From positions 1 to 26,733 of the forward strand of contig CAZEOW010000003.1 in NCBI GenBank assembly GCA_964514005.1: a DNA stretch of 26,733 nucleotides, written 5' to 3'. The notes under the pieces were generated by a model. The model did no database searches. It had not been told where the DNA came from and was given only the letters and a program-made list of their open reading frames with translations. Source of the DNA: an uncultured Nautiliales bacterium (lineage in GTDB: Bacteria; Campylobacterota; Campylobacteria; Campylobacterales; Nautiliaceae). A program made the position numbers and the translations under genes. Of the stretch, positions 1,401 to 15,008 are shown piece by piece (the stretch's first letter is position 1; every line of letters begins with the position of its first letter).

Positions 1401-2345
1401 TTATTTTATTGTTGAAAAAATTTTATATGATTTTTTTCTTTTACCATTAGAGTTTATTACTCCCCAATATTTTTCTGCTTGTTTAAAATATCCTGTATGA
1501 TTAGGATTATCTATAAAATTAAAAAAATTAAATCCTATTAAGTTAGCCCCATTTTTGAAAATTGGTATTAGTTTTTTAAATTCTTTTAATACATAGCTTT
1601 GAAGGTTAGTTTTATAGCTTGAAATAGCTAAATATGCTAGAAAAGTTGGTTTTTTATACTTTTTATTTAAGTATAAAGCAAATGCAAGTGCTCTTAGGGG
1701 AGTATTTTTTATCTCTTTTATATTATTTCTTGTTATTGCTCTCATTTCTTGAAAAGCTATAAAGTCACTTATTTTAGCACTCTCTTTCATTGAAGGAGAA
1801 TATAAATTCCAGTTATATTCATCCCATATTTTATTGTAATCTCCAAAATCTCCTAAACATATTCCAACTAAAGTGTTTTTATCTTTTAAAAGTTTTATTG
1901 ATTTTACTTGTAATTTATCAAATTGTTTTGAAGAGGCCATATTGTTTTCGTTATATTCTGGATTGATTATAACAATTTTTTTGCCTTTAATTTTTTTTAA
2001 AAAATTTTTAAATTTTTTTAATTTAGCAAAATACTCTTTTTTATGTTTTTTTACAAATTCTGGTGAAATTTCATCTGCAAAGTAATAAAAAATAAAAATA
2101 GGAGTAAATCCTTTTTTAATTGCTTTATTAATTGTTTTAGCCGGATACCAAAACTCTTTCCAATCTCTTGTGATCCAAATAGAAAATGAGTTTACATTTT
2201 TTGGAGTAATTTTATAAATAGGAATTCTATCTTTATAGGAGCATTTTTTATAAAAGGCTTTATTTTTGCAAACAGTAAATCCTCCAACTCCAATATAAAA
2301 AGCAAAACTAAATGAAAAAGAGAGTATTAATAATAATTTACTCAT
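1401..2345 (-). CDS. Secreted (beta/alpha)8 glycoside hydrolase-like protein, clan GH-A-like
   Basis: Signal peptide MSKLLLILSFSFSFA; IIINPEYNE acid/base-like motif; KPTFLAY strand; C-terminal AEKYWGVINSNGKRKKSY resembles the E..fGl...dg..K motif. ATG 2345 is preferred; the track start 2351 is TTG. Confidence 0.65.
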   Translation of the reverse strand: MSKLLLILSFSFSFAFYIGVGGFTVCKNKAFYKKCSYKDRIPIYKITPKNVNSFSIWITRDWKEFWYPAKTINKAIKKGFTPIFIFYYFADEISPEFVKKHKKEYFAKLKKFKNFLKKIKGKKIVIINPEYNENNMASSKQFDKLQVKSIKLLKDKNTLVGICLGDFGDYNKIWDEYNWNLYSPSMKESAKISDFIAFQEMRAITRNNIKEIKNTPLRALAFALYLNKKYKKPTFLAYLAISSYKTNLQSYVLKEFKKLIPIFKNGANLIGFNFFNFIDNPNHTGYFKQAEKYWGVINSNGKRKKSYKIFSTIK

Positions 2346-4107
2346 AATCAATTATAAGGGAAATTGTGGATTTTGGATAAAGTTTTTTAATTCTAACATC
2401 TATAAACCTTTCTTTTTTATTGATGTTTATAATTTTTATTTTTGTTTTTAATACTTCAGGGGCAATGTGTTTAATTTTTACATTTGGATAATATATCCTA
2501 AAAGTAAAATTATCTATATCTACTTCGTTATCGTTAGAAATACCTATAAAAATCTTTTTTTCTGTAATTGTATCTATATGAAGTGAAATATTCTTTAAAA
2601 GTTTTGCTCTTTTGGCTATATCTTTTCCTTTTAGAGTTGGAATTTTTTGTTGTTTTAAAAATTTAAAATACTCTTTTAATATATGAATATTTTCTGGAGC
2701 ACTTAAAAGATGAGTATGAACACTTAGAGTGTATAATGTATTAAGAGATGTTAGTAATTTAGTCTCTTTTTTTATATGATCTAATATTTGCTTATCGTTG
2801 AAATTGTATTCAATAAGATATAAATAATCATCTGTTCCATGACGAGGAAGTAAAACAAAATTATCTATTATTGTTGGTTGCAAAGAAGGAATAGATTTTG
2901 CCATAACATATAAGTAATTGGCTTTTTTAATGTATTCTTTTATGATATTATTAATTTCCTCTCTTGGAGGTCTAAAACCTAAAACTTCTTTTTTAGTTAT
3001 TTTTTGTAAAATATTTTTAGATGCGATTATTTCTTGAGAAGCGTTTTTATTATTAATTTTAGAATGAGAAAAACTATGAGAAGCTATTTCTATATTCTTA
3101 AAAGAAGATGCTTTTTTTGTAATTTTTTTATGTTCTTGAGCAAGTTTTGCTACACAAAATAGAGTTGTATTTATATCATACTCTTTTGCTAATTTAGCAA
3201 AATTTATCATATTTTTATATTTATATTCTGTATCTTCTGATATAAAAACGGCCATTTTTTTATCTAAAAAAGGATATTTTACAAGAGTAATGGGATTTTT
3301 GAAATAGCTAAATATATTTTTAAAAATTGTATTAAAAGTTTTTTCACTCATATCTAAAAATGTGTATGCTGGAGTATTGAAATAAAACCATTTTCCTTTT
3401 TTATAAAATCCGTGCCATAAAATCCCTGCTTTTTTTACATTTAAATGTTTTGGAGTATCGGTAAGTGCCCAATTAGTAAGTGCTAAATCGGGAGTTTTTG
3501 TGAATAAATCTATATAATCATTTCCATAAAGAGTAATGAAAGAGGTTTTTAAGTTTTCTGCTTTTGCAATAGGGGATAGAAGCTTATATGTAAAAAAAGA
3601 TAAATCTTTTTTATAGAGTTTATAATCAGTTGACTTTAGATTAGTAAGATTTATTAAATATAGATTATTTGTAGGAATTAAATTTTCATTAAAATATCCA
3701 AAGTGGTAATTAAATATTAAATTCCCCCCTTTTTTTAAAAATTCTTGAATTTTAAAAAAAGTTTCTCTGCTTAATACATAATTATCGGGAATTATTAAAA
3801 TATCTTTTTTGGAAAGTTGCCTAATTTCATTAGGATATATAGTTTTTGTATTAAATCCTAATGTTTGGATTCTTTGTTGGAATTTTTCAAATACTCTATT
3901 GTAATTGTTTAATAATCCGTTCTTTTCTAAATATAAATCGTTTAATTGAGTTTTTAAAAAATATATATTCTGTTTAGGAGGTTGAAAAAAGCTAAAATTA
4001 TCATTTTTAGGAAGTATTTGATATAAAACATAACCAGAAATAGTAATCATTATAAATACTGATAAAAAAACAAAAAGAGGGTAGGTATATCTATTCGAAA
4101 AAGACAT
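2338..4107 (-). CDS. Membrane-anchored polysaccharide deacetylase (CE4/NodB-like) with an N-terminal class-I GATase-like domain
   Basis: N-terminal TM; ILIIPDNYVLS...FLKKGGNLIF (GATase/GH42-middle-like); VFISEDTE (motif 1 variant), EIASHSFSH (HxxxH), GFRPP and LSVHTH. AGGAG SD at 4114-4118. Confidence 0.85.
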   Translation of the reverse strand: MSFSNRYTYPLFVFLSVFIMITISGYVLYQILPKNDNFSFFQPPKQNIYFLKTQLNDLYLEKNGLLNNYNRVFEKFQQRIQTLGFNTKTIYPNEIRQLSKKDILIIPDNYVLSRETFFKIQEFLKKGGNLIFNYHFGYFNENLIPTNNLYLINLTNLKSTDYKLYKKDLSFFTYKLLSPIAKAENLKTSFITLYGNDYIDLFTKTPDLALTNWALTDTPKHLNVKKAGILWHGFYKKGKWFYFNTPAYTFLDMSEKTFNTIFKNIFSYFKNPITLVKYPFLDKKMAVFISEDTEYKYKNMINFAKLAKEYDINTTLFCVAKLAQEHKKITKKASSFKNIEIASHSFSHSKINNKNASQEIIASKNILQKITKKEVLGFRPPREEINNIIKEYIKKANYLYVMAKSIPSLQPTIIDNFVLLPRHGTDDYLYLIEYNFNDKQILDHIKKETKLLTSLNTLYTLSVHTHLLSAPENIHILKEYFKFLKQQKIPTLKGKDIAKRAKLLKNISLHIDTITEKKIFIGISNDNEVDIDNFTFRIYYPNVKIKHIAPEVLKTKIKIININKKERFIDVRIKKLYPKSTISLIIDYE

Positions 4108-4267
4108 ACTTTTCTCCTAATTCATTTAAAACATCTTCATAAGTTAATTCTTTTTTTGTTTTCTTTCTTTCTCTAGCTTTGTATAAAAAGTAAGCTATTA
4201 CTCCAAATATTAAAGTAAGCAGGGTTATTATTAAAATAAGCATTGATAAAAAACTTAAAATATTCAT
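4091..4267 (-). CDS. Small single-pass membrane protein, 58 aa; candidate PgaD/IcaD-like synthase partner
   Basis: Hand translation: MNILSFLSMLILIITLLTLIFGVIAYFLYKARERKKTKKELTYEDVLNELGEKYVFFE*. ATGA overlap with the GT2 stop, AAGGA SD upstream, 17-nt overlap with the deacetylase start. Below the ORF-track length cutoff. Confidence 0.8.
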   Translation of the reverse strand: MNILSFLSMLILIITLLTLIFGVIAYFLYKARERKKTKKELTYEDVLNELGEKYVFFE

Positions 4268-5589
4268 AAATTTCCTTTTCTATCTAATTTCCCCCAGCTC
4301 ATTTTTACACCAAACCACTCTTCAAATGTAGATAATATTTTAGCAAGATTTATCACTTGAATAAAAAATAATCTATAATATATAGCATAAAATGCTAAAC
4401 TTAATTTATCTCCTGTTACTAATATACAAAACAAAGCTCCAGCAATATCTACTATTGTAAACATTACCCACCAGTAAAACATTAATATACTATACCCAGA
4501 TACCATAGCACTATATAAAATAAACATATTAGCCCATAAATCCATAAAGGGCCAAAAAATTGCTTCAAACAGCATATACCACATTGTAAAAGATGCGGCT
4601 ATATTGCCTCTCCATTTCCATAAAAGTTTTTTATGTTTTCTAATAGCCTGTAATATTCCCCTTGTCCATCTATATCTTTGTTTTATTAAGTTTAATAATT
4701 CTTCTGGAGCTTCTGTATAGGCTACTGCATCGGGTTCAAAATCGATTTTATAACCTTTAGATATAAGCTTTAATGTAACATCACAATCTTCTGCAAATGT
4801 ATCATCATCATATAAGCCTACTTCAATTAATGCATTTTTTCTAAACATTCCAATAGGACCGGGAATTATATTTACAAGTTTTAAAAAAGCCTGACCATTT
4901 CTTACCATATTAAGCCCTTCTAAATACTCAAGGGCTTGAAGTTTTGTCCATAGGTTATTTTGATTGCTTACATAAACTGAACCGGCTACTGCGGCTATGT
5001 CTTCATCTTCAAAATGGGTTACCATTAAAGCTACTGCATCTTTATCAAGTTTTGAATCAGCATCAACTACCATTATTAAATCGCCCTCCGCTCTTTCTAT
5101 ACCATAATTAATCGCCATAGCTTTTCCACCATTTTTTTTTCTAAATACTCTAATCTCTTTTTTAGGGTGATTTTCATATCTTTTTGCAATGGAGTATGTT
5201 TTGTCTTTTGAACCATCATCAATTACTATAATTTCTAAATTTTGATAAGTTTGTTGAGTAAGAGATTCTATTGATTTTGCAATTACAACTTCTTCATTAT
5301 ATGCAGGAACTATTATACTTACTTTTAAAGATGTGTTTTTATTTATCTCTTTTTCTGAATTAATAGCTATTTTAATTATTGAAAAAAATAAAAGTAAAAA
5401 GTATCTTAAAATAATTAGGGTAGTAAAAAATAGAATTAATATCATTCCGGCTTTTGCAAAAATATTTTGGATATTGTAAAAAGTCTGATAAAAGTGAAAA
5501 AGCGTATAACCAAGTCCTGTTATTAAAATAAAACTTAAAAATATAATAACAGGAAGTTTTACCAAACTTTTAATATTTCTAATAAACAT
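4264..5589 (-). CDS. Processive GT2 synthase, PgaC/IcaA/MatB-like (poly-beta-1,6-GlcNAc synthase-like)
   Basis: Two N-terminal and several C-terminal TMs; DDGS (124-127), NGGKA, DAD (176-178), AED, QRYRW (304-308); C-terminal WGKLDRKG; no PilZ domain, so not BcsA. Confidence 0.88.
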   Translation of the reverse strand: MFIRNIKSLVKLPVIIFLSFILITGLGYTLFHFYQTFYNIQNIFAKAGMILILFFTTLIILRYFLLLFFSIIKIAINSEKEINKNTSLKVSIIVPAYNEEVVIAKSIESLTQQTYQNLEIIVIDDGSKDKTYSIAKRYENHPKKEIRVFRKKNGGKAMAINYGIERAEGDLIMVVDADSKLDKDAVALMVTHFEDEDIAAVAGSVYVSNQNNLWTKLQALEYLEGLNMVRNGQAFLKLVNIIPGPIGMFRKNALIEVGLYDDDTFAEDCDVTLKLISKGYKIDFEPDAVAYTEAPEELLNLIKQRYRWTRGILQAIRKHKKLLWKWRGNIAASFTMWYMLFEAIFWPFMDLWANMFILYSAMVSGYSILMFYWWVMFTIVDIAGALFCILVTGDKLSLAFYAIYYRLFFIQVINLAKILSTFEEWFGVKMSWGKLDRKGNL

Positions 5590-8500
5590 TCTATACTTTC
5601 ATAATCATTAGTATTAGTTGTGTTTGAGCTGTTTGAAAAACTACAACCGGTTTTAAATATTTTATTTTTATAAAAAGCTGATATTTTATATAAATTTTTG
5701 CTATCAAAAAAACTATATCCTATAGCACCTTTTAATGTTAAGTAATTTTTTTGATATTTTATCCCTATAAAATTTGAATCTGTCTTTTTAGGAGAATAGT
5801 AGCAACTATTTTTTGAGTTAAATTGATACCATCCTTCAGCAAACATTGTAAATGGAAATGATTCATAAAAGTCATAATAAAATTGAGGAGTAAAAACATT
5901 ATTTTTATTGTTTACATACTCATATGCTAAGCTATACCACAAATCTCTAATAGGAGAAATTTGATTAAAGTATGAAATTTCAGCTTTAATTCTGTTGTAT
6001 TTAATAGAACAGATACTTTTTCTTGAATATGCTAAATTATGTTTATTTATTCTAAAAGTGTATTTGTTAAAATATTCAATATCCCATCCTACCATTTTTT
6101 CAATATCATAAAAAATATCTATTAAGAAGTTTTTATTTTTATATCCTATACCGTAGTAGTAACTTTTATGGTTTTGGTTATTTTGAGTTAGATTATATCC
6201 TCTAATTAACCCAAAAATATTTTTTCCCGCTGTTAAATAGTAAGTTGTCATATCAGTTTTTTGATTATCTTTGAAGTAGTTTAATTTAAAATTTAAAAAA
6301 TAATTTTTTAAAGTTTTTATTACTACTATACTTTTTTTAGGTTGAGTTTTTTTAGGAGTTGTTTTAATGGGTTTAATTATTTTTTTAGGAGGTTTTTTTA
6401 TAGTAATTTTTTTAATAAGAGGTTTTTTTATAATATTTTTATGTGAAACTACTTTTTTTGATTTAGATTTTTTAGCTTCAATAGCTTTTAAATTTTCTAA
6501 TATATATTTTTTTAAAGAGTTTTCTTTTTTAAATGGAACATATTTGCCTTTTTCCCAACTTTCTCTAATAATTTTACACTTTTTTTCGCATTTAATATAT
6601 AAAGTTTTATATCCTTTATCTTTTTTTCTTTTAGATGCAAATACTTGGTAAAACTTTACTATATATACATTTTTTCTTTTTTCTAATAATATAGGGTCAT
6701 ATATTCCTACACTTATAAAATAGGAGTTTTTAAATAGAGCCTGTTTTCTTAATACCCATCCTAAATTATTAGTATAATTTTTTCCATAAAATTTTGAATA
6801 CTCTCTAAAATTCATACTCTCCCAAGCTTTTTTCCAATTATTTAAAAACTCTTTTAAAGAATTAGGAAGAGGTTTTGGCATTTGAGAGAGAAGTTTTTTA
6901 TATATTTTTTTTGCCTCTTCTATTTTTCCGGATTTTTGAAGAGAATAAGCATAGTTATACTCAATAGTAGGAGTTTTTTTATACCACATTAAAAGATAAA
7001 ATTCTCCTGCTGCTTTAGCGTATTGTTTTGAGTATTCTAATGTATAAGCATATTTTTCATGAACATCATAATCATCAGGATTATATGATAGATACATCTT
7101 ATAATAATCTGCAGCTGTTGCATAATTATTTGAAAAATAGGCTCTATCTCCTAAAATAAGTAGCTTTTTACTTCTGTTGTTAAAATATTCATCTATTGTA
7201 GCAGCAGTGCTTGAAGTTACAAAATTGGGAGATATTTTTAATATTTTTGCTTTTAAAATGGCAGCTTTTTTATAATTGGGATATTTATTTAATAATTGAT
7301 TTAATACTCTTAAAGCTTCTTTATTAAAACCATTCCAATAGTATCTTTTTGCAAGTTCTAAATAAGCTTCTTTTGTGTTTTTATAGTTTGCATAATATTC
7401 CCAATTTCCAAAACCTTTATAATAATTTTTTAATTCAAGATATATATCTCCTAAAGTTTTATAGATTTGAGCATTTTCAGGGTGAAGTTTCAAATATCTT
7501 TCATAATAATAAGCTGATTGCTGATAATTTTTTATCATATAATAAAAATCTGCTAATTTTAATAAATACTCTTCATTAGCAGGGTCTTTTTTAAGAAGTT
7601 TTTTATATTTTTTTATAAGTGGAGCGATATTTTTATTTAAAATCATTAAACTCTCTTTTGCATCTTCGTCAAATGGATTTTCTTTTAATACCTTTTTAAA
7701 CATACTTTTTGCTTTTTTCTTATTTCCTTGCCACATTTGAATGTAAGCCAACATTTTATAAGCTTCATATTTTTCTTTTTTATTGCCGTGTTCTAAAACA
7801 TCACTTAAATAGATTGTAGCTTGATAATATTTTCCTTCCCATGCAAGGATTTTTCCAAGTAAAAGTTTTACTTTTGGATTATTTGTGTGTTGAAGTTTTT
7901 TTAAATATTCTAAAGCTTCTTTATTATTTCCACTCCAACTTAGAAGTTTTGCAAGTAAAATTTTTGCATTGTCATTATGGGGATTTTTATTAATAAAATC
8001 CTGAACTAATAATACTGCTTTTTTATGATTTTGTTGGAATAAAGCAAAAGCAAGTGCTTCTAAATTTTTGTAAGATGGGTCTTTTTTATAGGCTTCTTCT
8101 AAATTTTTAATAACTCTTTTTTTAGCTTCTTCGATTTTTTTAGAATATTTTTGGGTAAATTTTTTATCATATTTTGTAATTTGTTTAAGCAGTTTTTCAG
8201 CTTTGTTATACTCTCCTAAATAATAGTATATTTCAATTAGCTTTTTTGCATAGTCTAATTTAAATGAAGAGTAATAGAGTAATTTAAAATAGTTTTTTGC
8301 TTCTTTATATTTTCCAAGATAATATAAATTATAAGCTTTTATTTCAAAATAATCTATACTTTTTTTGTTTTTTATTTTAGATAGAACAAAAAGAGAGTCT
8401 TTATATTTTCCTTCCCACATCAACACTCTTGCTATTTTTATTTTTGAATCATCAGTTAAAGAGTCTATTTTTTTTATTGCATTAAGAGCATAAAAGAATT

Positions 8501-8828
8501 GTAAAAGCTTTTTATATTTTCCTTTTTCGTAAAAGTAAGAGACTGTATTATTTGGATTTTTGATTAAATATTTTTTATAAATAAAAAAAGATTCTATTTG
8601 TCTTTTTAATTTTTTTGCTATTTTATTTTTTTTATCTATTTTTAAAACTTTTTCTATATATTTTTTAGCTTCTTTATAATTTCCTTTTTGAATATAATAT
8701 TTTGCTAATAAAAGGCGGTTTTTTGTATCGTATTTGTGAGTTTTTACATATTGGATTAAACCTTTTACATCAATATTTAAAGCAAAAAGAGGAATAAAAA
8801 ATAAAAGCAGCAATACTCTTATTTGCAT
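5559..8828 (-). CDS. Outer-membrane polysaccharide export protein: signal peptide, TPR scaffold, NTF2-like domain, K/P-rich linker, C-terminal beta-barrel (PgaA/BcsC/PelB functional class)
   Basis: MQIRVLLLLFFIPLFA signal (ATG 8828 preferred over 8846); many TPRs with recurrent LA..L.W.G; about 250 C-terminal residues of alternating aromatic strands including CYYSP, ending in Trp. Confidence 0.78.
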   Translation of the reverse strand: MQIRVLLLLFFIPLFALNIDVKGLIQYVKTHKYDTKNRLLLAKYYIQKGNYKEAKKYIEKVLKIDKKNKIAKKLKRQIESFFIYKKYLIKNPNNTVSYFYEKGKYKKLLQFFYALNAIKKIDSLTDDSKIKIARVLMWEGKYKDSLFVLSKIKNKKSIDYFEIKAYNLYYLGKYKEAKNYFKLLYYSSFKLDYAKKLIEIYYYLGEYNKAEKLLKQITKYDKKFTQKYSKKIEEAKKRVIKNLEEAYKKDPSYKNLEALAFALFQQNHKKAVLLVQDFINKNPHNDNAKILLAKLLSWSGNNKEALEYLKKLQHTNNPKVKLLLGKILAWEGKYYQATIYLSDVLEHGNKKEKYEAYKMLAYIQMWQGNKKKAKSMFKKVLKENPFDEDAKESLMILNKNIAPLIKKYKKLLKKDPANEEYLLKLADFYYMIKNYQQSAYYYERYLKLHPENAQIYKTLGDIYLELKNYYKGFGNWEYYANYKNTKEAYLELAKRYYWNGFNKEALRVLNQLLNKYPNYKKAAILKAKILKISPNFVTSSTAATIDEYFNNRSKKLLILGDRAYFSNNYATAADYYKMYLSYNPDDYDVHEKYAYTLEYSKQYAKAAGEFYLLMWYKKTPTIEYNYAYSLQKSGKIEEAKKIYKKLLSQMPKPLPNSLKEFLNNWKKAWESMNFREYSKFYGKNYTNNLGWVLRKQALFKNSYFISVGIYDPILLEKRKNVYIVKFYQVFASKRKKDKGYKTLYIKCEKKCKIIRESWEKGKYVPFKKENSLKKYILENLKAIEAKKSKSKKVVSHKNIIKKPLIKKITIKKPPKKIIKPIKTTPKKTQPKKSIVVIKTLKNYFLNFKLNYFKDNQKTDMTTYYLTAGKNIFGLIRGYNLTQNNQNHKSYYYGIGYKNKNFLIDIFYDIEKMVGWDIEYFNKYTFRINKHNLAYSRKSICSIKYNRIKAEISYFNQISPIRDLWYSLAYEYVNNKNNVFTPQFYYDFYESFPFTMFAEGWYQFNSKNSCYYSPKKTDSNFIGIKYQKNYLTLKGAIGYSFFDSKNLYKISAFYKNKIFKTGCSFSNSSNTTNTNDYESIECLLEILKVW

Positions 8829-10120
8829 ATTTTTGTCTCTTCCCATTCAAATGCTTCTATAATATCCGCTTTTGATATATACAATTTTTCAAAAATTGGT
8901 TTTAAATTCCCTTTTCTTACATTAATTAAAACTACATAATAAAATTTTCCATCAAAATATATAATATCTTTATTTCTTAATTTATCGGCTATTTTTTCTA
9001 AATTAAGTTCAGATGTAAATTTAATTAAAGTAAATACAATTCTTTCTAAATATAATGAATTAATAATTTTGCAAAAATTTTCTAATGAATTTGCAATTTT
9101 ATTTTTAGGAAATTTATTTAATAAAGATGTATAAAAGTGAAACTTTATAAGTTTTTCGACTTCTAAAATGTATTCTCCTATTAAAAATTTATTTGGTAAT
9201 ATATCTTCGCATCCTTCTTTAATTGCAAGCATTTTATCTTCTACTCTTACATACTCTTTATTTACTATATATAAAATCTTTGAATCTATTTTTTCTTTCA
9301 TTTTACATATACTTATATCTAATCTATCTGAATTATAAATGACAATATGAGGATTTTCTAAAATTTTTGAAATTACATCCGAAGTGTTTGTAGCAATTTT
9401 TAATTCAAACATAGGTTTATCAAAAATATACCTGTTTAAATTGAGTAGATTTTTGTCTTGCGATACTATTAAAATTTTCTTTTTATTGATAGAGACTTTT
9501 TTTTCTTTTGAATCTGAAAGGTTTAATCTCTCTCCATTGTATAAAAATTGACACTCTTCATATCTTATAGGAAAAATAGAGTGTTTAATAGATAATATTC
9601 TTTGAGATGTTCTTTTTACTATTAAATTTAAATCACTAAAATTTTCCATTATTTCTATACAGGAAGTATTGTCTTTATTGGGAACTGCTGTTATCCATAG
9701 TTTTATTTTTCCTTTTATTTCTATTAATTCTTCCATAAAAGGTTTAACTTCTTCTATATCCGAAATTGAAAATAAAAGGTCAATTCTTTGAAAGATTAAA
9801 ATATCAGGATTAAAAGTTTTAATTATTCTTTTTAGATCTTCTAACAAAAACTTATATCCAAATTGAATTTTAAAGTCTTCCCAATTCTCTTTTAAATTTA
9901 AATATTCTAATTTTTTAATAGTTTGTTGCAGTTTTTCATCTTTTATAAAAGAAATTGCTTTTAATCTTTTTTCAAAAATTTGTTTAGGATAAGCGGATAA
10001 AATTAAAACTTTTGCTTTTTGTCTTGAAATTTCAAATAAACTAAAAGTTAATTTTCCAACTTTTTTACTCCCTTCTATTAAAATTATATCAGATTGTTGT
10101 AATGCATCATGTATTGTCAT
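8819..10120 (-). CDS. BcsE-like protein: degenerate RecA/KaiC-like domain, degenerate receiver, degenerate GGDEF with intact I-site
   Basis: GSKKVGKLT (Walker A-like, aa 17-25); KKILIVSQD...PHIVIYN receiver lacking the phospho-Asp; RVED (292-295); LRNKDIIYFDGKFYYVVL (RxxD 382-385, GGDEF lost). AAGGA SD. Confidence 0.7.
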   Translation of the reverse strand: MTIHDALQQSDIILIEGSKKVGKLTFSLFEISRQKAKVLILSAYPKQIFEKRLKAISFIKDEKLQQTIKKLEYLNLKENWEDFKIQFGYKFLLEDLKRIIKTFNPDILIFQRIDLLFSISDIEEVKPFMEELIEIKGKIKLWITAVPNKDNTSCIEIMENFSDLNLIVKRTSQRILSIKHSIFPIRYEECQFLYNGERLNLSDSKEKKVSINKKKILIVSQDKNLLNLNRYIFDKPMFELKIATNTSDVISKILENPHIVIYNSDRLDISICKMKEKIDSKILYIVNKEYVRVEDKMLAIKEGCEDILPNKFLIGEYILEVEKLIKFHFYTSLLNKFPKNKIANSLENFCKIINSLYLERIVFTLIKFTSELNLEKIADKLRNKDIIYFDGKFYYVVLINVRKGNLKPIFEKLYISKADIIEAFEWEETKICK

Positions 10121-11957
10121 TTAATTCCTTTAATTGATTCTCAAATACCTTTACAAGAGGCGATTTTTCATATTTTAATACTTTTATTATCAATATAATA
10201 GCCTCTTTATTGTAAGGGTCTTTTTCTAAAACTTTATAAAGGTATTTTTTTGCCTTTTTATACTCTTTTAAGTAAAAATAGTCTTTTGCTATTACAAGAT
10301 AACTTTCGCTATTTTTTAAAATATCTAAACTTTTTTTAAATTTTTTTAAATTAAATAAGATTTCTCCTAAAACAGATTTAGTCTCTTTATTAGGATTTAA
10401 GTTATATGCTATATTGGCAAAATTTAAAGCCTCTTTTGGAGAAGATAATTTAGCTTTTAATAAATAAGGTTTATAAGAAGCTTTATTTATTGTTTCTAAA
10501 CTTTTTTCTATATATGTTTTTGCAAGAGGCAGATTTTTTTCTTTATAAGCTTTTAGGGCTTTTTTGTAATTTGTTAAAGAGAGATATTTTATAGTTTTTG
10601 GTTTTGAAAACAAATTGTTTTTTATTGCTTGAATTTTAATATACCACCATCCATCGTTAAGCTCGCTTAAAGAAAAATATTTTTTAGAAGTTTTATATCT
10701 TAAAATAGGAGTTTTTATAAATTTTTTATCTCTACTGATAGTAATTACAAACTTTTTATAAGGACTTGTCCATTTTAATATATTTTCTATTTTTAACTCT
10801 TTAACAGGAAGAGGAAGTATTGTTTTAATAATCTCTCCATTCTTTGTATAAAAACCTTCATTTTCTTTTATTTTAATTTTATCTGTTGTAATTGCCCCGC
10901 TATACACACTTGTAGCTAATGTTTTTTCGTTTTTTATTACTTCAAAATCTGTTCCGTAATTTTTTATTTTATTATTTTCTGCTATTATTTCTACTTTGTT
11001 GTTATTAGTAATAAATTCAGCATCAGCTTTTTTTATAATAATCTTATTTTTAAAATTTGTTGAAAATAAATTTTTATAAGCTCTTATTTCTAACTTATCA
11101 TTTTTATAAGTCTTTATTATTACATTGTTTTCAAGTTTGTATATTTTCATATTATTTGAACTGCCAATATCTATTTTTTGGGGAAAAAGACAGTAAAAAT
11201 AATCTATTGAAAACAATAGAACAATCGTAACAGTTGATAAAGCAGCGGCAAGTCTTTTTATTCTTATAATTTTTGCTGTTTTTGGAAGATATATAAAAAA
11301 ACTTGTTCCTTCTTTCTCTTTACTCTCTACAGCAATTGAACCTCCTAATTTTTCTATTACCACTTTAGTTAAATTAAGTCCAATTCCACTCCCTTCTTTT
11401 TTATCAGTTGTATAATATTTTTTAAATATTTTTGTTATTTCTTCTTTGCTAATTCCTTCTCCCGTATCTTTTATAGAAATTAAATAACCGCTTTTTTCTT
11501 TTTCTACTTTTATAAAAACAACACCTTTGTATTTATTATATTTTATAGCATTATGCAAGAGATTAAAAAAAGCCTTTTTTAACCACTCTTTATTAGCAGT
11601 AATAGGAAGCTTTTCGTGTTTAAAAACTATTTCTATCTCTTTTCTTTCAATATCGCTTTTTAACTCTTCTAAAATCTCCCATATTAACTCATTTAAATTA
11701 AATCTATGATTTTTTAATTTACTTCTTTTATATCTTTCAACTTCAATAAAATCTTTTAACATCTCAATAACTATATTAAGATTGGTTTTTATATTTCTTA
11801 AAAGTTCTTCTTTTTTCTCTTTTGGAATCTTTTTTTCTAAAATGGAAACTGAAAATTTAATACTTGCAAGTTTATTTTTTATATCGTGATAAAAAACATG
11901 TGCAAAAGGTGTTTTTTTTTTAACATTATTCTCCCCCTTTTCTAAAAATATATCCAA
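10107..11957 (-). CDS. Histidine kinase with inverted architecture: HisKA-HATPase, TM, FecR-like, FN3-like, TPR
   Basis: H-box YHDIKNKL, N-box NLLHNAIKY, G1 KDTGEG, G2 GSGIGL; TM aa 236-258; YGTDFEV...SVYSG (FecR-like); GWWYIKIQAI (FN3-like). The track start 11957 is a weak TTG; a stronger ATG at 11926 is out of frame. Confidence 0.85.
   Translation of the reverse strand: MDIFLEKGENNVKKKTPFAHVFYHDIKNKLASIKFSVSILEKKIPKEKKEELLRNIKTNLNIVIEMLKDFIEVERYKRSKLKNHRFNLNELIWEILEELKSDIERKEIEIVFKHEKLPITANKEWLKKAFFNLLHNAIKYNKYKGVVFIKVEKEKSGYLISIKDTGEGISKEEITKIFKKYYTTDKKEGSGIGLNLTKVVIEKLGGSIAVESKEKEGTSFFIYLPKTAKIIRIKRLAAALSTVTIVLLFSIDYFYCLFPQKIDIGSSNNMKIYKLENNVIIKTYKNDKLEIRAYKNLFSTNFKNKIIIKKADAEFITNNNKVEIIAENNKIKNYGTDFEVIKNEKTLATSVYSGAITTDKIKIKENEGFYTKNGEIIKTILPLPVKELKIENILKWTSPYKKFVITISRDKKFIKTPILRYKTSKKYFSLSELNDGWWYIKIQAIKNNLFSKPKTIKYLSLTNYKKALKAYKEKNLPLAKTYIEKSLETINKASYKPYLLKAKLSSPKEALNFANIAYNLNPNKETKSVLGEILFNLKKFKKSLDILKNSESYLVIAKDYFYLKEYKKAKKYLYKVLEKDPYNKEAIILIIKVLKYEKSPLVKVFENQLKELNDNT
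11912..11921 (-). repeat. A10 homopolymer in the first codons of the histidine kinase
   Basis: Ten T on the plus strand. Minus strand reads GGGGGAGAATA-ATG-TT-A10-CACC. It is the longest run I noticed in the window. Confidence 0.9.
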
Positions 11958-12582
11958 GCTCTCTTTTATTTATAATTAAATCTTTTTTTCCAAGTTTTTC
12001 TCTTAATCTTTTTACCAAAACATTTAAAGTATTTTTTGGAACATATTCTTGCCATATGTGAGATATGATAAAATCAGAACTTAAAATCTTTCCTTCATTA
12101 TTTAAAAATAATTCCAATAAATCACTTTCTCTTCTTGTAAGATTGATTACTTTTGCTTTTTTTATTAAAAGTTTTTCTTCATAGTTATACTTAATATCAT
12201 CGTCTATATAAATAATTTTTTTAGGTTTAAAAATTTTATTAATTCTCAAAATTATTTCTTCATAATCAAACGGTTTTTTTATAAAATCTTCTGCACCAAG
12301 CTCAAAGGCTTTTTTTATATTTTCTATTTCAGTATGACTTGACATAATAATAATTTTGTATCTTTCAAAGATTTGAAAATGTTTTTTCATCTCTTCTAAA
12401 AAATTCCCATCAGGTAAAGTTATATCAGCCAAAATCAAATCAGGATCTATTTTTTCAAAGTTTTGTAAAAACTCTTTAAGGGTATAATATGAATATATTC
12501 TAAACTCTTCTGCTTCAAGAATTAAACTTATAGCATAATTTAAATCTTTTTCGTCTTCTAGGATAACTATCTTCAACTTCAC
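11926..12582 (-). CDS. OmpR/PhoB-family response regulator
   Basis: ILEDE acidic pocket, DLILADITLPDG phospho-Asp, KKPF, winged-helix LTRRE...LNVLVKRLREKL...GY. GTG start at 12582 or TTG at 12576. Confidence 0.93.
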   Translation of the reverse strand: MKLKIVILEDEKDLNYAISLILEAEEFRIYSYYTLKEFLQNFEKIDPDLILADITLPDGNFLEEMKKHFQIFERYKIIIMSSHTEIENIKKAFELGAEDFIKKPFDYEEIILRINKIFKPKKIIYIDDDIKYNYEEKLLIKKAKVINLTRRESDLLELFLNNEGKILSSDFIISHIWQEYVPKNTLNVLVKRLREKLGKKDLIINKRELGYIFRKGGE

Positions 12583-12589
12583 CCCCCCC
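12582..12589 (-). repeat. G8 homopolymer forming the ribosome-binding region of the response regulator
   Basis: Eight C on the plus strand between the rsmE stop (12591) and the regulator start. It is the longest G/C run seen in this AT-rich window. Confidence 0.85.
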
Positions 12590-12590
12590 T

Positions 12591-13247
12591 TTATAATAAA
12601 ACTTTTGCACTAACTGAAAATGCGGCTGTTTCGCTTTTTAATATAAATCCATCAAGAGACACTTTTTGTTTAAACATTTCTTTTTCTTTTTTACTAAATC
12701 CACCTTCAGGTCCTATTATAAAAGGCAGATTATAGCTTTTACACTCTATTTTTGGTGCATTAAAATCTAATGCTATAAAATTTTTGTATTTTTTAATAAA
12801 CTCTTCTAACGAATCTAAAATCTCTATTTCTAACTTATTGCTTCTTCCACACTGCTGAGAAGAGTTGATTATAATTTTATCTAATCTTTCTTGTTTTAAC
12901 CTAAAATTTCTTTGAGAATATTCACAATAAAAAAAACTTATTTTACTTACGCCTATTTCATTTAGACTTGGAAGAGTCTTTTCTATATTTTTTGGTTCTA
13001 TTATACACCATCCTAAATGGAAAAATTTTAATGGTTTGTTAGGCTTTAAAATTTTTTCTTCTAAGGTTAAATATGCCTCTTTTTTATTAATCTCCTCTAT
13101 TTTATAGATATATAAATAATCGTCTTTTAAATTTCTGATTTTTACTTTTTCATTTTTTTTTATTCTTCTTACCTTAAATAAATACTTATGATTTTCTCCT
13201 TTTATAATTATATTATTTATAGGATTAGGCTCATATAAAAATTGCAT
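12591..13247 (-). CDS. rsmE: 16S rRNA m3U1498 methyltransferase RsmE
   Basis: H...VRRIK N-terminus, QQCGRS, IIGPEGGFS and ILKSETA SPOUT motifs. Confidence 0.93.
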   Translation of the reverse strand: MQFLYEPNPINNIIIKGENHKYLFKVRRIKKNEKVKIRNLKDDYLYIYKIEEINKKEAYLTLEEKILKPNKPLKFFHLGWCIIEPKNIEKTLPSLNEIGVSKISFFYCEYSQRNFRLKQERLDKIIINSSQQCGRSNKLEIEILDSLEEFIKKYKNFIALDFNAPKIECKSYNLPFIIGPEGGFSKKEKEMFKQKVSLDGFILKSETAAFSVSAKVLL

Positions 13248-13298
13248 ATTTGACCTTTTTTGATTAAAATTATATAAAAATTTTAAGGAGAGAGGGTT
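13248..13298. promoter_or_regulatory. Compact divergent promoter region (rsmE operon / AAA ATPase)
   Basis: 51-nt gap; minus-strand TATAAT at 13269-13274 overlaps plus-strand TAAAAT at 13265-13270; SD-like motifs precede both starts. Confidence 0.45.
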
Positions 13299-15008
13299 TT
13301 GAAGAGTATTATAGATTTTTTAGAAGACCCTAAAAAGACAAAAATTTACGAAGTATTAAATGTAAGTGATGAAGAATTGGTTATTTTGCAAAGGATGGTG
13401 GAAAGTTATTTAGATGAAATTGAAGATGTAAAAGTAAGGTCATTGCTCTCTTTTATTTTTGGAGAAGAGAAAATAGAACTTTTAAAAAAAGTTAAATATA
13501 TTAAAAATCTTATAGATGAAGGTTGGCTTGTTTTAAGTGTTTTTGGAGATGTAAAAAGCCATAATGTTACATCTCTTGAACTTTTTAATTCATCTGTTTC
13601 TCTCTCTGTTACTTTTTTAAAACTTTTAGAAGAGGGAAATCTGGATATTATAGTGCCTGAAAAAACACCTTATGAAGAACATTTAGAATATCTGCACGAT
13701 GAATTTTTAAGAATAGAGATTTATGAACAGATAGCTAACTTTTATCACAATAATTCTAATCATAAAGAAACAGCCAATATAAAAAGACTTCAAAGTAAAT
13801 TAAAACTAATAGAAAACACTATAAAAGACAGAATTAAACTTACTCTTATAGATTTGCCTGTTAGAAATTTTATTATAGAAAAGGAATTGAGTGAAGAAGA
13901 AGAGATTTTATTTTTAGCTCTTTTAAAAGAAGAATTTATTGGAAATAATGAAAAAATAAGAGACCTAAACTATCTTTTAAACCTTATTAGTCATGATGAA
14001 ATAGAGAGAATTAAAAACAGAACCCTCTTAGATGATAACTCCAAACTTATTAGTGAAGGTATTTTTGATTACGATGAAGTTTTTGGAATGTTAGGAAATG
14101 GATATACAAAAATATTTATGTTAAATGAAGAAATTTTAAATGAGTTTGCCCATCCAAGAATAAAGAAAAAAACAGAATCTATTGTAAAAGAGACTATTTT
14201 TGAAATAATTGAACCAGAACAAGGATTAGATGAAATAGTTTTACCTAAAAAAACAAGGGATATGCTTGATATTTTATTAAAACAGATAGATAAAAGAGTT
14301 TTAAAACTTTTAAAAGAGTGGGGTATTAAGAAAAGCTCTGATGTAGAAGCCAAAATTATATTTTATGGAGCTCCCGGAACCGGTAAAACTATTACAGCAT
14401 ATGCAATAGCAAAAGAGCTTAAAAAACCTATTTTAAGTTTAGACTCAAGTAAAATACTCTCTATGTATGTTGGTGAGAGTGAAAAAAATGTGAGAAAAAT
14501 GTTTGATGATTACTATCATATCAGTGAAAAATTAAAAACAAAACCAATTTTACTTTTAAATGAGGCTGATCAATTTTTTAGCGTAAGAACAACAGGGGCA
14601 ATTAGTAGTGCTGATAAAATGCATAATCAAATGCAAAATATTTTCCTTGAACAACTTGAAAAGTTTGATGGAGTTTTAATAGCTACTACTAATTTACTCG
14701 AAAATATAGATGCGGCATTTTCAAGAAGATTTGAATATAAAATAGAGTTTACAAAACCAAATTATAAAGATAGGAAAAAAATATGGGAGATAAAATTGCC
14801 TAAAAATGCCCCTTATGAAGAAAATTTTGATGTTTCTAAATTAGCAAAATATGACTTAACAGGAGCACAGATAGAAGTAATCATAAAAAATACAGCCTAT
14901 AAAGTAGCACGAAGAAAAAAACCGCTTTTTAAAGTAGAAGATTTTATAGAAGAGATTAAAAAAGAAAAAGAAAACTCTTTTGACGCTGAAAAAGAAGTAG
15001 GTTTTTAA
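13299..15008 (+). CDS. AAA-family ATPase (Campylobacterota Cj0377-like)
   Basis: FYGAPGTGKT Walker A, LLLNEAD Walker B variant, TTNL sensor, AFSRRF arginine finger. TTG start after AGGAGAGAGG. Confidence 0.9.
   Translation: MKSIIDFLEDPKKTKIYEVLNVSDEELVILQRMVESYLDEIEDVKVRSLLSFIFGEEKIELLKKVKYIKNLIDEGWLVLSVFGDVKSHNVTSLELFNSSVSLSVTFLKLLEEGNLDIIVPEKTPYEEHLEYLHDEFLRIEIYEQIANFYHNNSNHKETANIKRLQSKLKLIENTIKDRIKLTLIDLPVRNFIIEKELSEEEEILFLALLKEEFIGNNEKIRDLNYLLNLISHDEIERIKNRTLLDDNSKLISEGIFDYDEVFGMLGNGYTKIFMLNEEILNEFAHPRIKKKTESIVKETIFEIIEPEQGLDEIVLPKKTRDMLDILLKQIDKRVLKLLKEWGIKKSSDVEAKIIFYGAPGTGKTITAYAIAKELKKPILSLDSSKILSMYVGESEKNVRKMFDDYYHISEKLKTKPILLLNEADQFFSVRTTGAISSADKMHNQMQNIFLEQLEKFDGVLIATTNLLENIDAAFSRRFEYKIEFTKPNYKDRKKIWEIKLPKNAPYEENFDVSKLAKYDLTGAQIEVIIKNTAYKVARRKKPLFKVEDFIEEIKKEKENSFDAEKEVGF

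What the first reader, a model, noticed from the sequence alone, without database searches (positions are those of the whole stretch)
5559..8828. Export protein carries a Csd6/Pgp2-type NTF2 domain between TPRs and barrel
Seen at about 6550-6860: FLNNWKKAWESMNFREYSKFY...W...K...YIVKFYQVF...DKGYKTLY...KIIRESW, followed by a K/P-rich linker (about 6325-6490) and the barrel. Known: this pattern typifies the C-terminal NTF2-like domain of Helicobacter Csd6 and Campylobacter Pgp2, implicated in peptidoglycan or glycan binding; PgaA, BcsC, PelB and AlgK are not known to have it. Inference: a lineage-specific cell-wall anchor or polymer-binding module in the export conduit.
Basis: partly seen in the sequence, partly recalled or inferred. 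Interest (0 to 1): 0.66.

Follow-up and report, generated by a model that had tools for sequence, protein, structure and literature searches.

The report
Polysaccharide export porin with NTF2 domain
A hydrothermal-vent bacterium's outer-membrane exporter for a PNAG-like biofilm polysaccharide carries, between its periplasmic TPR scaffold and its 16-stranded pore, a domain of the kind that lets cell-shape enzymes grip the cell wall; relatives conserve this layout, but E. coli PgaA and BcsC lack it.

Summary
ORF 5559..8846 (minus strand, 1095 aa) has a signal peptide and about 18 TPR hairpins (aa 27-655). An NTF2-like domain follows (aa 658-768). It matches Pfam Cds6_C at E 2e-9, and the family profile hits only Bd1075, Pgp2 and Csd6 in the PDB. 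After it come a helix and a disordered K/P-rich tether (aa 795-848). The C-terminus is a confidently modelled 16-stranded beta-barrel (aa 849-1095, pLDDT above 90) whose closest geometry is the PgaA porin.

The gene sits in a conserved cassette: unknown REC-like protein, this exporter, a PgaC-like GT2, a 58-aa membrane protein and a CE4 deacetylase. The cassette occurs in Nautiliaceae, Nitratifractor and a Desulfurobacterium.

The barrel matches no Pfam or NCBIfam model and is rare: 65 clusters among 1.84 billion representatives. Of 49 long members, 38 carry the NTF2 domain; the distant ones are TPR plus barrel only. Residues that line the peptidoglycan-binding pocket of Pgp2 are nearly invariant here.

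The most likely function, inferred and not shown, is a tethered peptidoglycan-binding anchor for the export conduit. Binding of the GlcNAc polymer itself is the main rival. This is a new variant of a known kind, of moderate interest.

The parts
8778..8828 (-). Probable Sec signal peptide (aa 7-23, MQIRVLLLLFFIPLFAL), counted from the alternative start M7. It has no lipobox cysteine.
   Evidence: Read directly from the translation. Orthologues align from about residue 10. No signal-peptide predictor was run.
6882..8768 (-). Periplasmic TPR superhelix, aa 27-655, with about 37 helices (roughly 18 hairpins).
   Evidence: Pfam TPR_19 at E 2e-37, TPR_14 at 1.7e-27 and others. The AF2 model is all-helical with pLDDT mostly 85-97. 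Foldseek on the full model returns only TPR proteins.
6543..6875 (-). NTF2-like domain of the Csd6/Pgp2/Bd1075 type (Pfam Cds6_C), aa 658-768. It has helices 662-676, 680-684, 689-692 and 695-707, and strands 711-724, 727-738, 742-753 and 757-766. A family-specific C753/C757 pair sits in the last hairpin.
   Evidence: sequence matches. (pLDDT about 87-97). (conservation of W671, W675, Y683, Y687, K701, K747, E762, W764).
6465..6515 (-). Single helix after the NTF2 domain (aa 778-794).
   Evidence: AF2 secondary structure. Column conservation is 0.58.
6303..6464 (-). Disordered, very basic K/P-rich tether (aa 795-848; 37% K+R, 11% P, no D/E).
   Evidence: pLDDT below 50 in both models. In 44 relatives the length ranges from 17 to 100 aa (median 72) and conservation is the lowest of all segments at 0.40.
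5562..6302 (-). C-terminal 16-stranded outer-membrane beta-barrel (aa 849-1095). It ends in Trp and has four nearly invariant cysteines (C946, C1015, C1068, C1087). The stop codon is at 5559-5561.
   Evidence: Both AF2 models give 16 strands at pLDDT 91-97. Foldseek gives OmpG at 4e-8, then PgaA 4Y25 at 2.5e-7 with TMt 0.61 and rmsd 4.6 A, then BcsC, PelB and OmpF/C. Strand residues alternate between hydrophobic/aromatic and polar. No Pfam, NCBIfam or PDB sequence hit.
4264..5589 (-). Downstream GT2 synthase, PgaC-like (441 aa).
   Evidence: Pfam Glycos_transf_2 at 2.7e-39. Best NCBIfam hit is PgaC_IcaA at 206 bits, below the cutoff of 422. It is 31% identical to E. coli PgaC at E 3e-48.
4091..4267 (-). 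58-aa single-pass membrane protein in the PgaD/IcaD position.
   Evidence: Conserved in every related cassette. No family hit. The role is inferred from position only.
2338..4107 (-). CE4 polysaccharide deacetylase (589 aa) with an N-terminal membrane anchor and a GH42M-like domain.
   Evidence: Pfam Polysacc_deac_1 at 1.3e-12. No BLAST similarity to E. coli PgaB. Conserved in the cassette.
8819..10120 (-). Conserved upstream gene (433 aa) with a central degenerate receiver domain.
   Evidence: Present directly upstream in all relatives. The family profile hits the PhoP, NtrC1 and ArlR receiver domains at E 2e-6 to 1e-5.

Best explanation
The gene encodes the outer-membrane export component of a synthase-dependent, PNAG-like exopolysaccharide system of a hydrothermal-vent Campylobacterota bacterium (Nautiliaceae-like).

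Shown here: a secreted protein with a long periplasmic TPR scaffold, a Csd6/Pgp2/Bd1075-type NTF2 domain, a disordered tether and a 16-stranded PgaA-like barrel. It is co-transcribed with a PgaC-like GT2 synthase, a small membrane protein and a CE4 deacetylase.

Inferred mechanism: the barrel sits in the outer membrane as the polymer's exit pore. The tether of roughly 50-100 residues lets the NTF2 domain hang at the level of the sacculus. There its conserved pocket binds peptidoglycan as the homologous pocket of Pgp2 does. This would fix the TPR scaffold, and with it the inner-membrane synthase and deacetylase, in register with the pore across the cell wall. The NTF2 domain would therefore be an accessory anchoring or positioning module, not part of the pore.
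For: Domain identity.

Pocket residues: the residues needed for PG binding or shape function in Pgp2 are Y233, K257, K307 and E324, plus W225 and Y237 from the NMR work (PMC8038945). In the HMMER alignments they align with Y683, K701, K747, E762, W675 and Y687. Across 85 distinct family NTF2 sequences these are conserved as follows: Y683 78/85, K701 81/85, K747 75/85 plus 6 R, E762 83/85, W675 75/85 and Y687 85/85.

The C-terminal 'IIRESW' matches Bd1075 'IIREEW'. That motif includes W303, which is needed for the NTF2-dependent localisation of Bd1075. W764 is W in 74/85 sequences.

Selection: the NTF2 domain is the most conserved segment of the protein (0.73 mean column identity, against 0.66 for the TPRs and 0.56 for the barrel). 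The tether is the least conserved (0.40) and varies in length. That pattern fits a functional domain on a flexible leash.

Barrel.

Operon and synteny.

Natural variation: distant cassettes keep the TPR-barrel protein without the NTF2 domain, as expected for an accessory module.
Against: No binding data exist for any member. The pocket similarity cannot tell peptidoglycan from another GlcNAc-containing glycan. In all characterised proteins this NTF2 domain accompanies an LD-carboxypeptidase domain, which is absent here. The K307 equivalent is not invariant.

Eleven of 49 long members lack the domain, so it is not required for export as such. The inter-domain geometry is not predicted with confidence (pTM 0.45). 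The NTF2 fold itself was not confirmed by a structure search, because barrel hits filled the Foldseek list. No transcripts were found in the available metatranscriptomes.
Confidence: 0.5

Rival explanations
1. The NTF2 pocket binds the exported GlcNAc-based polymer rather than peptidoglycan. It would act as a hand-off or guide site between the TPR scaffold and the barrel mouth.
For: The synthase is PgaC/NodC-like, so the product is probably a GlcNAc polymer that is chemically related to the PG glycan. The domain lies exactly on the path between TPRs and pore. I recall that the Csd6 structure paper (PMC4599014, listed, not read here) proposed a sugar ligand for its NTF2 pocket.
Against: A disordered tether of 17-100 residues between the NTF2 domain and the barrel is a poor design for a rigid conduit. 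The conserved residues are those shown to matter for PG binding in Pgp2. TPR-barrel members without the domain sit in the same cassette.
Confidence: 0.27
2. The NTF2 domain is a protein-protein or localisation module. It would recruit the deacetylase or another partner, or direct the exporter to a particular site on the cell surface, as the Bd1075 NTF2 domain targets that enzyme to one cell face.
For: The Bd1075 NTF2 domain is necessary for asymmetric localisation, including residue W303, which is conserved here as W764. Bd1075 is the closest solved relative, closer than Pgp2 or Csd6.
Against: In Bd1075, targeting is itself thought to work through a wall feature, so this overlaps with the PG-binding model. 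No partner is indicated by any data here.
Confidence: 0.15
3. The resemblance is a chance or compositional match in a lysine-rich, AT-rich protein, and the segment is really more TPR or part of the barrel.
For: The whole-protein Pfam scan did not list Cds6_C, and the precomputed annotation of this protein lacks it.
Against: The isolated segment scores above Pfam's cutoff. The family profile hits the three solved Csd6-type NTF2 domains and nothing else. Most orthologues carry the precomputed PF24125 hit. AF2 gives an alpha+beta domain, not TPR or barrel, at pLDDT about 90.
Confidence: 0.01

Closest known systems
PgaA, the poly-beta-1,6-GlcNAc export porin of E. coli (PDB 4Y25; Pfam PgaA_barrel PF21197; NCBIfam TIGR03939)
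   Same: Both have a signal peptide, a periplasmic TPR region and a C-terminal 16-stranded barrel. PgaA has the best geometric Foldseek match (TMt 0.61, rmsd 4.6 A). Both are encoded next to a PgaC-type GT2 synthase (31% identity), a small membrane protein and a CE4 deacetylase.
   Different: There is no sequence membership. TIGR03939 scores 22.9 bits against a cutoff of 366.65, and only over the TPRs. PF21197 gives no hit. hhalign of the barrels gives probability 4.7%. PgaA has no NTF2 domain and no disordered tether, and its TPRs abut the barrel. The TPR region here is about twice as long. The deacetylase is not PgaB-like. Gene order is also different, and an extra REC-like gene precedes the exporter.
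BcsC (cellulose) and PelB (Pel) TPR-porins
   Same: Both are long TPR superhelices (about 18-20 repeats) joined to a 16-stranded barrel. Foldseek hits: 9B8A at 1.1e-6, 6TZK at 5e-6 and PelB 9H80 at 4.5e-6.
   Different: No BCSC_C (PF05420) hit. The BcsC equivalog scores 28 bits against a cutoff of 858. E. coli BcsC has no NTF2 domain. The synthase is of a different type.
NTF2 domains of the LD-carboxypeptidases Bd1075 (7O21), Pgp2 (6XJ6) and Csd6 (4XZZ); Pfam Cds6_C PF24125
   Same: Significant full-length sequence homology and conserved pocket residues. The extended C-terminal strand with a Trp is as in Bd1075. All are periplasmic.
   Different: Here the domain is not attached to a YkuD-type LD-carboxypeptidase domain. 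It is inserted between a TPR scaffold and an outer-membrane barrel. It also has a family-specific Cys753/Cys757 pair, which is absent from the aligned Bd1075, Pgp2 and Csd6 sequences.

Membership tests
Cds6_C / Csd6-Pgp2-Bd1075-type NTF2-like domain (PF24125) | Scores above the Pfam gathering threshold over the whole domain | tested here: met
   38.1 bits against a cutoff of 27, E 2e-9, profile positions 2-110 of 111, when the segment is scanned alone. Not listed in the whole-protein scan.
Cds6_C / Csd6-Pgp2-Bd1075-type NTF2-like domain (PF24125) | Sequence homology to the solved members | tested here: met
   Family profile: 7O21 at 7.5e-19, 6XJ6 at 1e-8, 4XZZ at 7e-7, with no other significant PDB hit.
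Cds6_C / Csd6-Pgp2-Bd1075-type NTF2-like domain (PF24125) | NTF2 fold (three or four helices packed on a curved antiparallel sheet) | tested here: inconclusive
   AF2 secondary structure and pLDDT agree with the fold. No structural superposition was obtained, because barrel hits filled the Foldseek list.
Cds6_C / Csd6-Pgp2-Bd1075-type NTF2-like domain (PF24125) | Conserved pocket residues (Pgp2 W225, Y233, Y237, K257, K307, E324) | tested here: met
   The aligned residues W675, Y683, Y687, K701, K747 and E762 are conserved in 75 to 85 of 85 family sequences.
Cds6_C / Csd6-Pgp2-Bd1075-type NTF2-like domain (PF24125) | Binds peptidoglycan | not testable with these tools
   Needs sacculus pull-down, NMR or ITC.
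Csd6/Pgp2 LD-carboxypeptidase (whole protein) | YkuD-type catalytic domain with a Cys/His active site | tested here: not met
   No YkuD or other catalytic domain appears in any scan of the 1095-aa protein. Only the accessory domain is shared.
PgaA (PNAG export porin) | Periplasmic TPR region plus a C-terminal 16-stranded barrel | tested here: met
PgaA (PNAG export porin) | Sequence membership (TIGR03939 equivalog; PF21197 PgaA_barrel) | tested here: not met
   TIGR03939 scores 22.9 bits against 366.65. No PF21197 hit even at E up to 10, although E. coli PgaA scores 463.7 bits. hhalign probability is 4.7%.
PgaA (PNAG export porin) | Linked to pgaC, pgaD and pgaB | tested here: inconclusive
   A PgaC-like GT2 is present but below the equivalog cutoff (206 against 422 bits; 31% identity). 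A small membrane protein occupies the PgaD position but is not homologous by any scan. The CE4 deacetylase is not PgaB-like.
PgaA (PNAG export porin) | Electronegative pore lumen suited to a cationic deacetylated polymer (property recalled from the PgaA structure paper) | tested here: inconclusive
   A rough assignment by strand parity gives lumen D+E 11 against K+R 12, with family medians of 12 and 12. No coordinates were available for a proper electrostatics calculation.
BcsC (cellulose export porin) | BCSC_C barrel (PF05420) and the NF008520 equivalog | tested here: not met
   No PF05420 hit. NF008520 scores 28.2 bits against a cutoff of 858.

The most novel reading that the evidence does not exclude
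The Csd6-type NTF2 domain is a portable wall-reading module. In this exporter it would do what it does for Bd1075, recognising a particular state or place of the sacculus. Exopolysaccharide secretion pores would then be installed and held at defined sites of the envelope. The tether would set the distance between outer membrane and wall, and the exporter would be mechanically coupled to peptidoglycan. That would be the first wall-anchoring or wall-targeting element in a synthase-dependent polysaccharide secretion system.
Probability: 0.15. Interest if true: 0.7.

Novelty: new variant of a known kind. Interest (0 to 1): 0.45.

Why it matters
It is poorly understood how synthase-dependent polysaccharide secretion systems (PNAG, cellulose, Pel, alginate) cross and register with the peptidoglycan layer. 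As far as I recall, none of the model exporters has a recognised wall-binding element. E. coli PgaA and BcsC showed no Cds6_C domain ahead of their barrels here.

This family offers a natural experiment. The same cassette exists with and without a Csd6/Pgp2-type NTF2 domain placed on a flexible leash below the pore. If the domain binds peptidoglycan, it shows one way such machines are anchored. It would also extend the known role of this NTF2 type beyond cell-shape carboxypeptidases.

The practical points are smaller. The barrel is a distinct family not modelled in Pfam or NCBIfam. The proteins are annotated only as 'tetratricopeptide repeat protein', so this exopolysaccharide system of vent Campylobacterota and Aquificota is invisible to standard annotation.

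Tried and rejected
1. A whole-protein Pfam scan found only TPR families. The NTF2 hit appeared only when the segment was scanned alone.

2. The C-terminal 257 aa gave nothing against Pfam or NCBIfam at E up to 10. The family profile gave nothing against PDB sequences.

3. The first homologue search with aa 657-1095 (NTF2 to barrel) returned only 5 short barrel fragments. The exhaustive profile search was needed to see the family.

4. The third and last homologous-protein search, with the NTF2 profile A4, was meant to survey which architectures carry Cds6_C. It returned 1 hit from 234 candidates and was uninformative, so the census of PF24125 architectures was not obtained.

5. Foldseek with the full-length model returned only TPR proteins. 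The second model (aa 655-1095) returned barrels but no NTF2 hits in the top 50.

6. hhalign of the barrel profile against the E. coli PgaA barrel found only a 13-residue GWYxFN motif, at probability 4.7%.

7. The idea that the gene is split, as in L001, was rejected. The L001 split is a frameshift in an A10 run. The window gene has no homopolymer longer than 8, and eight genome loci carry the fused or continuously open frame.

8. The BcsE-like idea for the upstream 433-aa protein got limited support. Only a degenerate receiver domain was supported. The KaiC-like N-terminus scored E 0.73, and there was no BcsE hit.

9. PDB sequence searches for the 316-aa and 589-aa downstream proteins gave nothing beyond weak CE4 hits.

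10. The RNA run search found no run holding the gene.

11. Literature searches for NTF2 with PgaA, and for PNAG in Nautiliaceae, found no description of this architecture.

Full report
**What is there**

The finding lies in one ORF on the minus strand, 5559..8846 (1095 aa). An alternative ATG at 8828 (M7) gives a typical signal peptide, MQIRVLLLLFFIPLFAL. The window is very AT-rich (about 22% GC in this part). It comes from a hydrothermal-vent metagenome.

**The NTF2 domain**

- A Pfam scan of the whole protein lists only TPR families.
- The segment aa 657-793 scanned alone matches PF24125, 'Cds6 C-terminal NTF2-like domain'. The hit is E 2e-9 at 38.1 bits, above the curated cutoff of 27, and covers almost the whole profile.
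- Against PDB sequences, the single segment finds Bd1075 of Bdellovibrio (7O21) at E 8.8e-10 and Pgp2 only weakly.
- A profile of 28 family NTF2 segments (A4) finds Bd1075 at 7.5e-19, Pgp2 (6XJ6/6XJ7) at 1e-8 and Csd6 (4XZZ) at 7e-7. Nothing else is significant.
- 7O21 is the LD-carboxypeptidase Bd1075. [quoted passage not shown]
- AF2 models built with 49 homologues give four helices followed by four long antiparallel strands for aa 662-766, at pLDDT about 87-97.
- I could not obtain a structural superposition of this domain alone.

**Pocket conservation**

In Pgp2 the NTF2 pocket binds peptidoglycan fragments. Y233, K257, K307 and E324 (and F242) are needed for function, and K307A loses sacculus pull-down. 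W225 and Y237 shift in NMR titrations (PMC8038945). The PDB chain numbering is offset by 38 from the residue numbering in the paper; I checked this on A224/W225, Y233, Y237, M256/K257 and K307.

With that offset, the HMMER alignments pair these residues with the window residues below. Counts are over 85 distinct NTF2 sequences of this family.

| Pgp2 residue | Window residue | Conservation |
|---|---|---|
| W225 | W675 | 75/85 W |
| Y233 | Y683 | 78/85 Y |
| Y237 | Y687 | 85/85 Y |
| K257 | K701 | 81/85 K |
| K307 | K747 | 75/85 K, 6 R |
| E324 | E762 | 83/85 E |

W671 and G745 are invariant. The C-terminal 'IIRESW' matches Bd1075 'IIREEW', including W303, the residue needed for Bd1075 targeting; W764 is W in 74/85. 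A C753/C757 pair in the last hairpin (84/85 and 79/85) is absent from the three solved proteins in the alignments.

**The tether**

After the domain come one helix (aa 778-794) and a segment that both models leave disordered (aa 794-846, pLDDT below 50). In the window this segment is 37% K+R, 11% P and has no acidic residue. In 44 relatives it is 17-100 residues long (median 72). It is the least conserved part of the protein, at 0.40 mean column identity. The NTF2 domain is the most conserved at 0.73, the TPRs score 0.66 and the barrel 0.56.

**The barrel**

- Aa 849-1095 have no hit in Pfam, NCBIfam or PDB sequences.
- Both AF2 models give 16 strands with very short turns at pLDDT 91-97.
- The strands alternate aromatic/aliphatic and polar residues, and the protein ends in Trp.
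- Foldseek of the aa 655-1095 model against the PDB returns outer-membrane barrels only. OmpG scores 4e-8 at rmsd 9.5 A. The PgaA porin 4Y25 scores 2.5e-7 with the best geometry of the list (TMt 0.61, rmsd 4.6 A over 288 columns). BcsC (9B8A, 6TZK), PelB (9H80) and the 16-stranded general porins follow at about 1e-6.
- At sequence level the barrel is a separate family. E. coli PgaA scores 463.7 bits on PF21197 and BcsC 404.7 bits on PF05420. The window barrel hits neither, and hhalign against the PgaA barrel gives probability 4.7%.
- A rough parity-based count shows no net negative lumen. I treat that as inconclusive.

**The family**

An exhaustive profile search of 1.84 billion representatives with the barrel alignment finds only 65 clusters. 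Most are proteins of 1100-1200 aa with the domain at the very C-terminus.

A local iterative search shows the NTF2 domain in 38 of 49 members longer than 600 aa, usually 340-400 residues before the C-terminus (range 321-608). I scanned ten of the eleven that lack it, and all ten are TPR plus barrel only.

Full-length orthologues (31-55% identity) occur in Nautilia lithotrophica, Caminibacter mediatlanticus TB-2, Caminibacter pacificus, Lebetimonas natsushimae and many vent MAGs. Every name a source supplies is just 'tetratricopeptide repeat protein', and most carry a precomputed PF24125 hit. More distant NTF2-bearing members include a Desulfurobacterium sp. (Aquificota) and a Campylobacterales MAG. 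A genome scan found eight loci in Nautiliaceae, Nitratifractor and other Campylobacterota MAGs.

In one metagenome contig (L001) the gene is split into 812-aa and 293-aa ORFs. This is a one-base frame change inside an A10 run, and the second ORF has no signal peptide. It is therefore a sequencing error, a pseudogene or slippage, not a two-gene version.

**Genomic context**

The minus-strand order is: rsmE, an OmpR-type response regulator, a histidine kinase, a 433-aa unknown protein, the exporter, GT2, a 58-aa membrane protein, a CE4 deacetylase and a 316-aa unknown protein.

- This order is conserved in four Nautiliaceae loci.
- The core (433-aa gene, exporter, GT2, small protein, deacetylase) is also found in Nitratifractor, in Desulfurobacterium and in an NTF2-less distant member.
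- The best NCBIfam hit of the GT2 is PgaC/IcaA (206 bits, below the cutoff of 422), followed by NodC. It is 31% identical to E. coli PgaC.
- The deacetylase has a CE4 domain but no similarity to PgaB.
- The product is therefore most likely a partly de-N-acetylated GlcNAc polymer. This is inferred and was not tested.

**How it most likely works**

Shown: domain identities, their order, the disorder of the tether, the barrel, the operon, and conservation of the pocket.

Inferred: the barrel is the exit pore in the outer membrane. With 16 strands, both barrel ends face the periplasm, so everything N-terminal to it is periplasmic. A tether of roughly 50-100 residues plus a helix is long enough to reach the sacculus, which lies several nanometres below the outer membrane (general knowledge of Gram-negative envelopes). 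The NTF2 pocket binds peptidoglycan as in Pgp2. This holds the TPR scaffold, and through it the synthase and deacetylase, under the pore.

I give this about 0.5. The main rival, at about 0.27, is that the pocket binds the GlcNAc polymer itself. The conserved residues cannot discriminate between the two, and the flexible tether argues mildly against a rigid conduit role. A protein-docking or site-targeting role like that of Bd1075 gets about 0.15. A chance match is excluded.

**Comparison and novelty**

Functionally and architecturally this is a PgaA/BcsC/PelB-type TPR-porin, but it fails the sequence membership tests for PgaA and BcsC. The NTF2 domain is a true member of the Csd6/Pgp2/Bd1075 (Cds6_C) family, but the protein is not an LD-carboxypeptidase.

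E. coli PgaA and BcsC have TPRs running directly into their barrels with no Cds6_C. PelB and AlgK were not tested. Full-text searches found no description of an NTF2 domain in a polysaccharide exporter, or of this system in Nautiliaceae.

The domain hit is already visible in precomputed Pfam annotation of the orthologues. What is new is recognising the architecture and its context, not the domain family. I rate it a new variant of a known kind, with interest about 0.45.

Noticed in passing
window 8819-10120 (-): This 433-aa protein is always encoded directly upstream of the exporter, including in the Desulfurobacterium cassette and the NTF2-less cassette. Its middle part (aa about 213-330) is a receiver-like domain (family profile against the PhoP REC domain, E 2.3e-6). 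In the alignment, the phospho-acceptor Asp position reads 'IIIYn' rather than 'lIvlD', so it looks like a pseudo-receiver. The N-terminus (IEGSKKVGKLTF) weakly resembles KaiC/RecA (E 0.73). It could be a BcsE-like regulator, but no BcsE hit was found.
   Followed up: partly
L001 2530-2600 (JGI 3300021792 contig; the same contig appears in ENA and Logan assemblies): The orthologous exporter gene is split into 812-aa and 293-aa ORFs by a frame change inside an A10 run in the linker-coding region. The downstream frame is open across the junction. This could be an assembly error, a pseudogene or slipped-strand variation.
   Followed up: partly
window 12582-12589: There is a C8 run (G8 on the coding strand) immediately upstream of the response-regulator start, in the ribosome-binding region (AGGGGGGGGTGAAGTTG). 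This is striking in a genome of about 22% GC. It is absent from the same position in four related loci, and could be a phase-variable tract.
   Followed up: partly
window 10107-11957 (-): The histidine kinase has an inverted layout. HisKA and HATPase lie at the N-terminus (aa 24-227). One hydrophobic helix follows (about aa 236-258), then about 350 residues with TPRs at the C-terminal end, presumably periplasmic. It is conserved next to the cassette in Nautiliaceae.
   Followed up: no
window 5559-8846 (-), protein P0080: Cds6_C is missed for this protein in a whole-protein Pfam scan and in the precomputed annotation. It is found when the segment is scanned alone and in most orthologues. This looks like a sensitivity loss in a long, lysine-rich, TPR-dominated sequence.
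   Followed up: partly
window 5562-6302 (-), aa 946, 1015, 1068, 1087: Four nearly invariant cysteines lie in the barrel. C946 is in the loop next to the short helix at aa 945-949. C1015 is in the invariant CYYSP loop. C1068 and C1087 are on the last two neighbouring strands. This suggests two disulfides that staple loops or strands, which I believe is unusual for outer-membrane barrels.
   Followed up: no
L013 (Desulfurobacterium sp. GCA_054029275.1) 5662-13568: The same five-gene cassette, with the NTF2-bearing exporter, occurs in an Aquificota genome. This suggests transfer between vent thermophiles of different phyla.
   Followed up: partly
window 1401-2351 (-) and 2338-4107 (-): The last gene of the cluster (316 aa, with a signal peptide) has no hit in Pfam or the PDB. 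Among the related loci it was detected only in L004 (61% identity). The deacetylase carries an extra N-terminal GH42M-like domain (E 1.5e-5) that PgaB lacks.
   Followed up: partly
window 15934-17589 (+): In the adjacent nuo operon, one 551-aa ORF carries both the 30-kDa (NuoC) and 49-kDa (NuoD) subunit domains, so it is a fused NuoCD.
   Followed up: no
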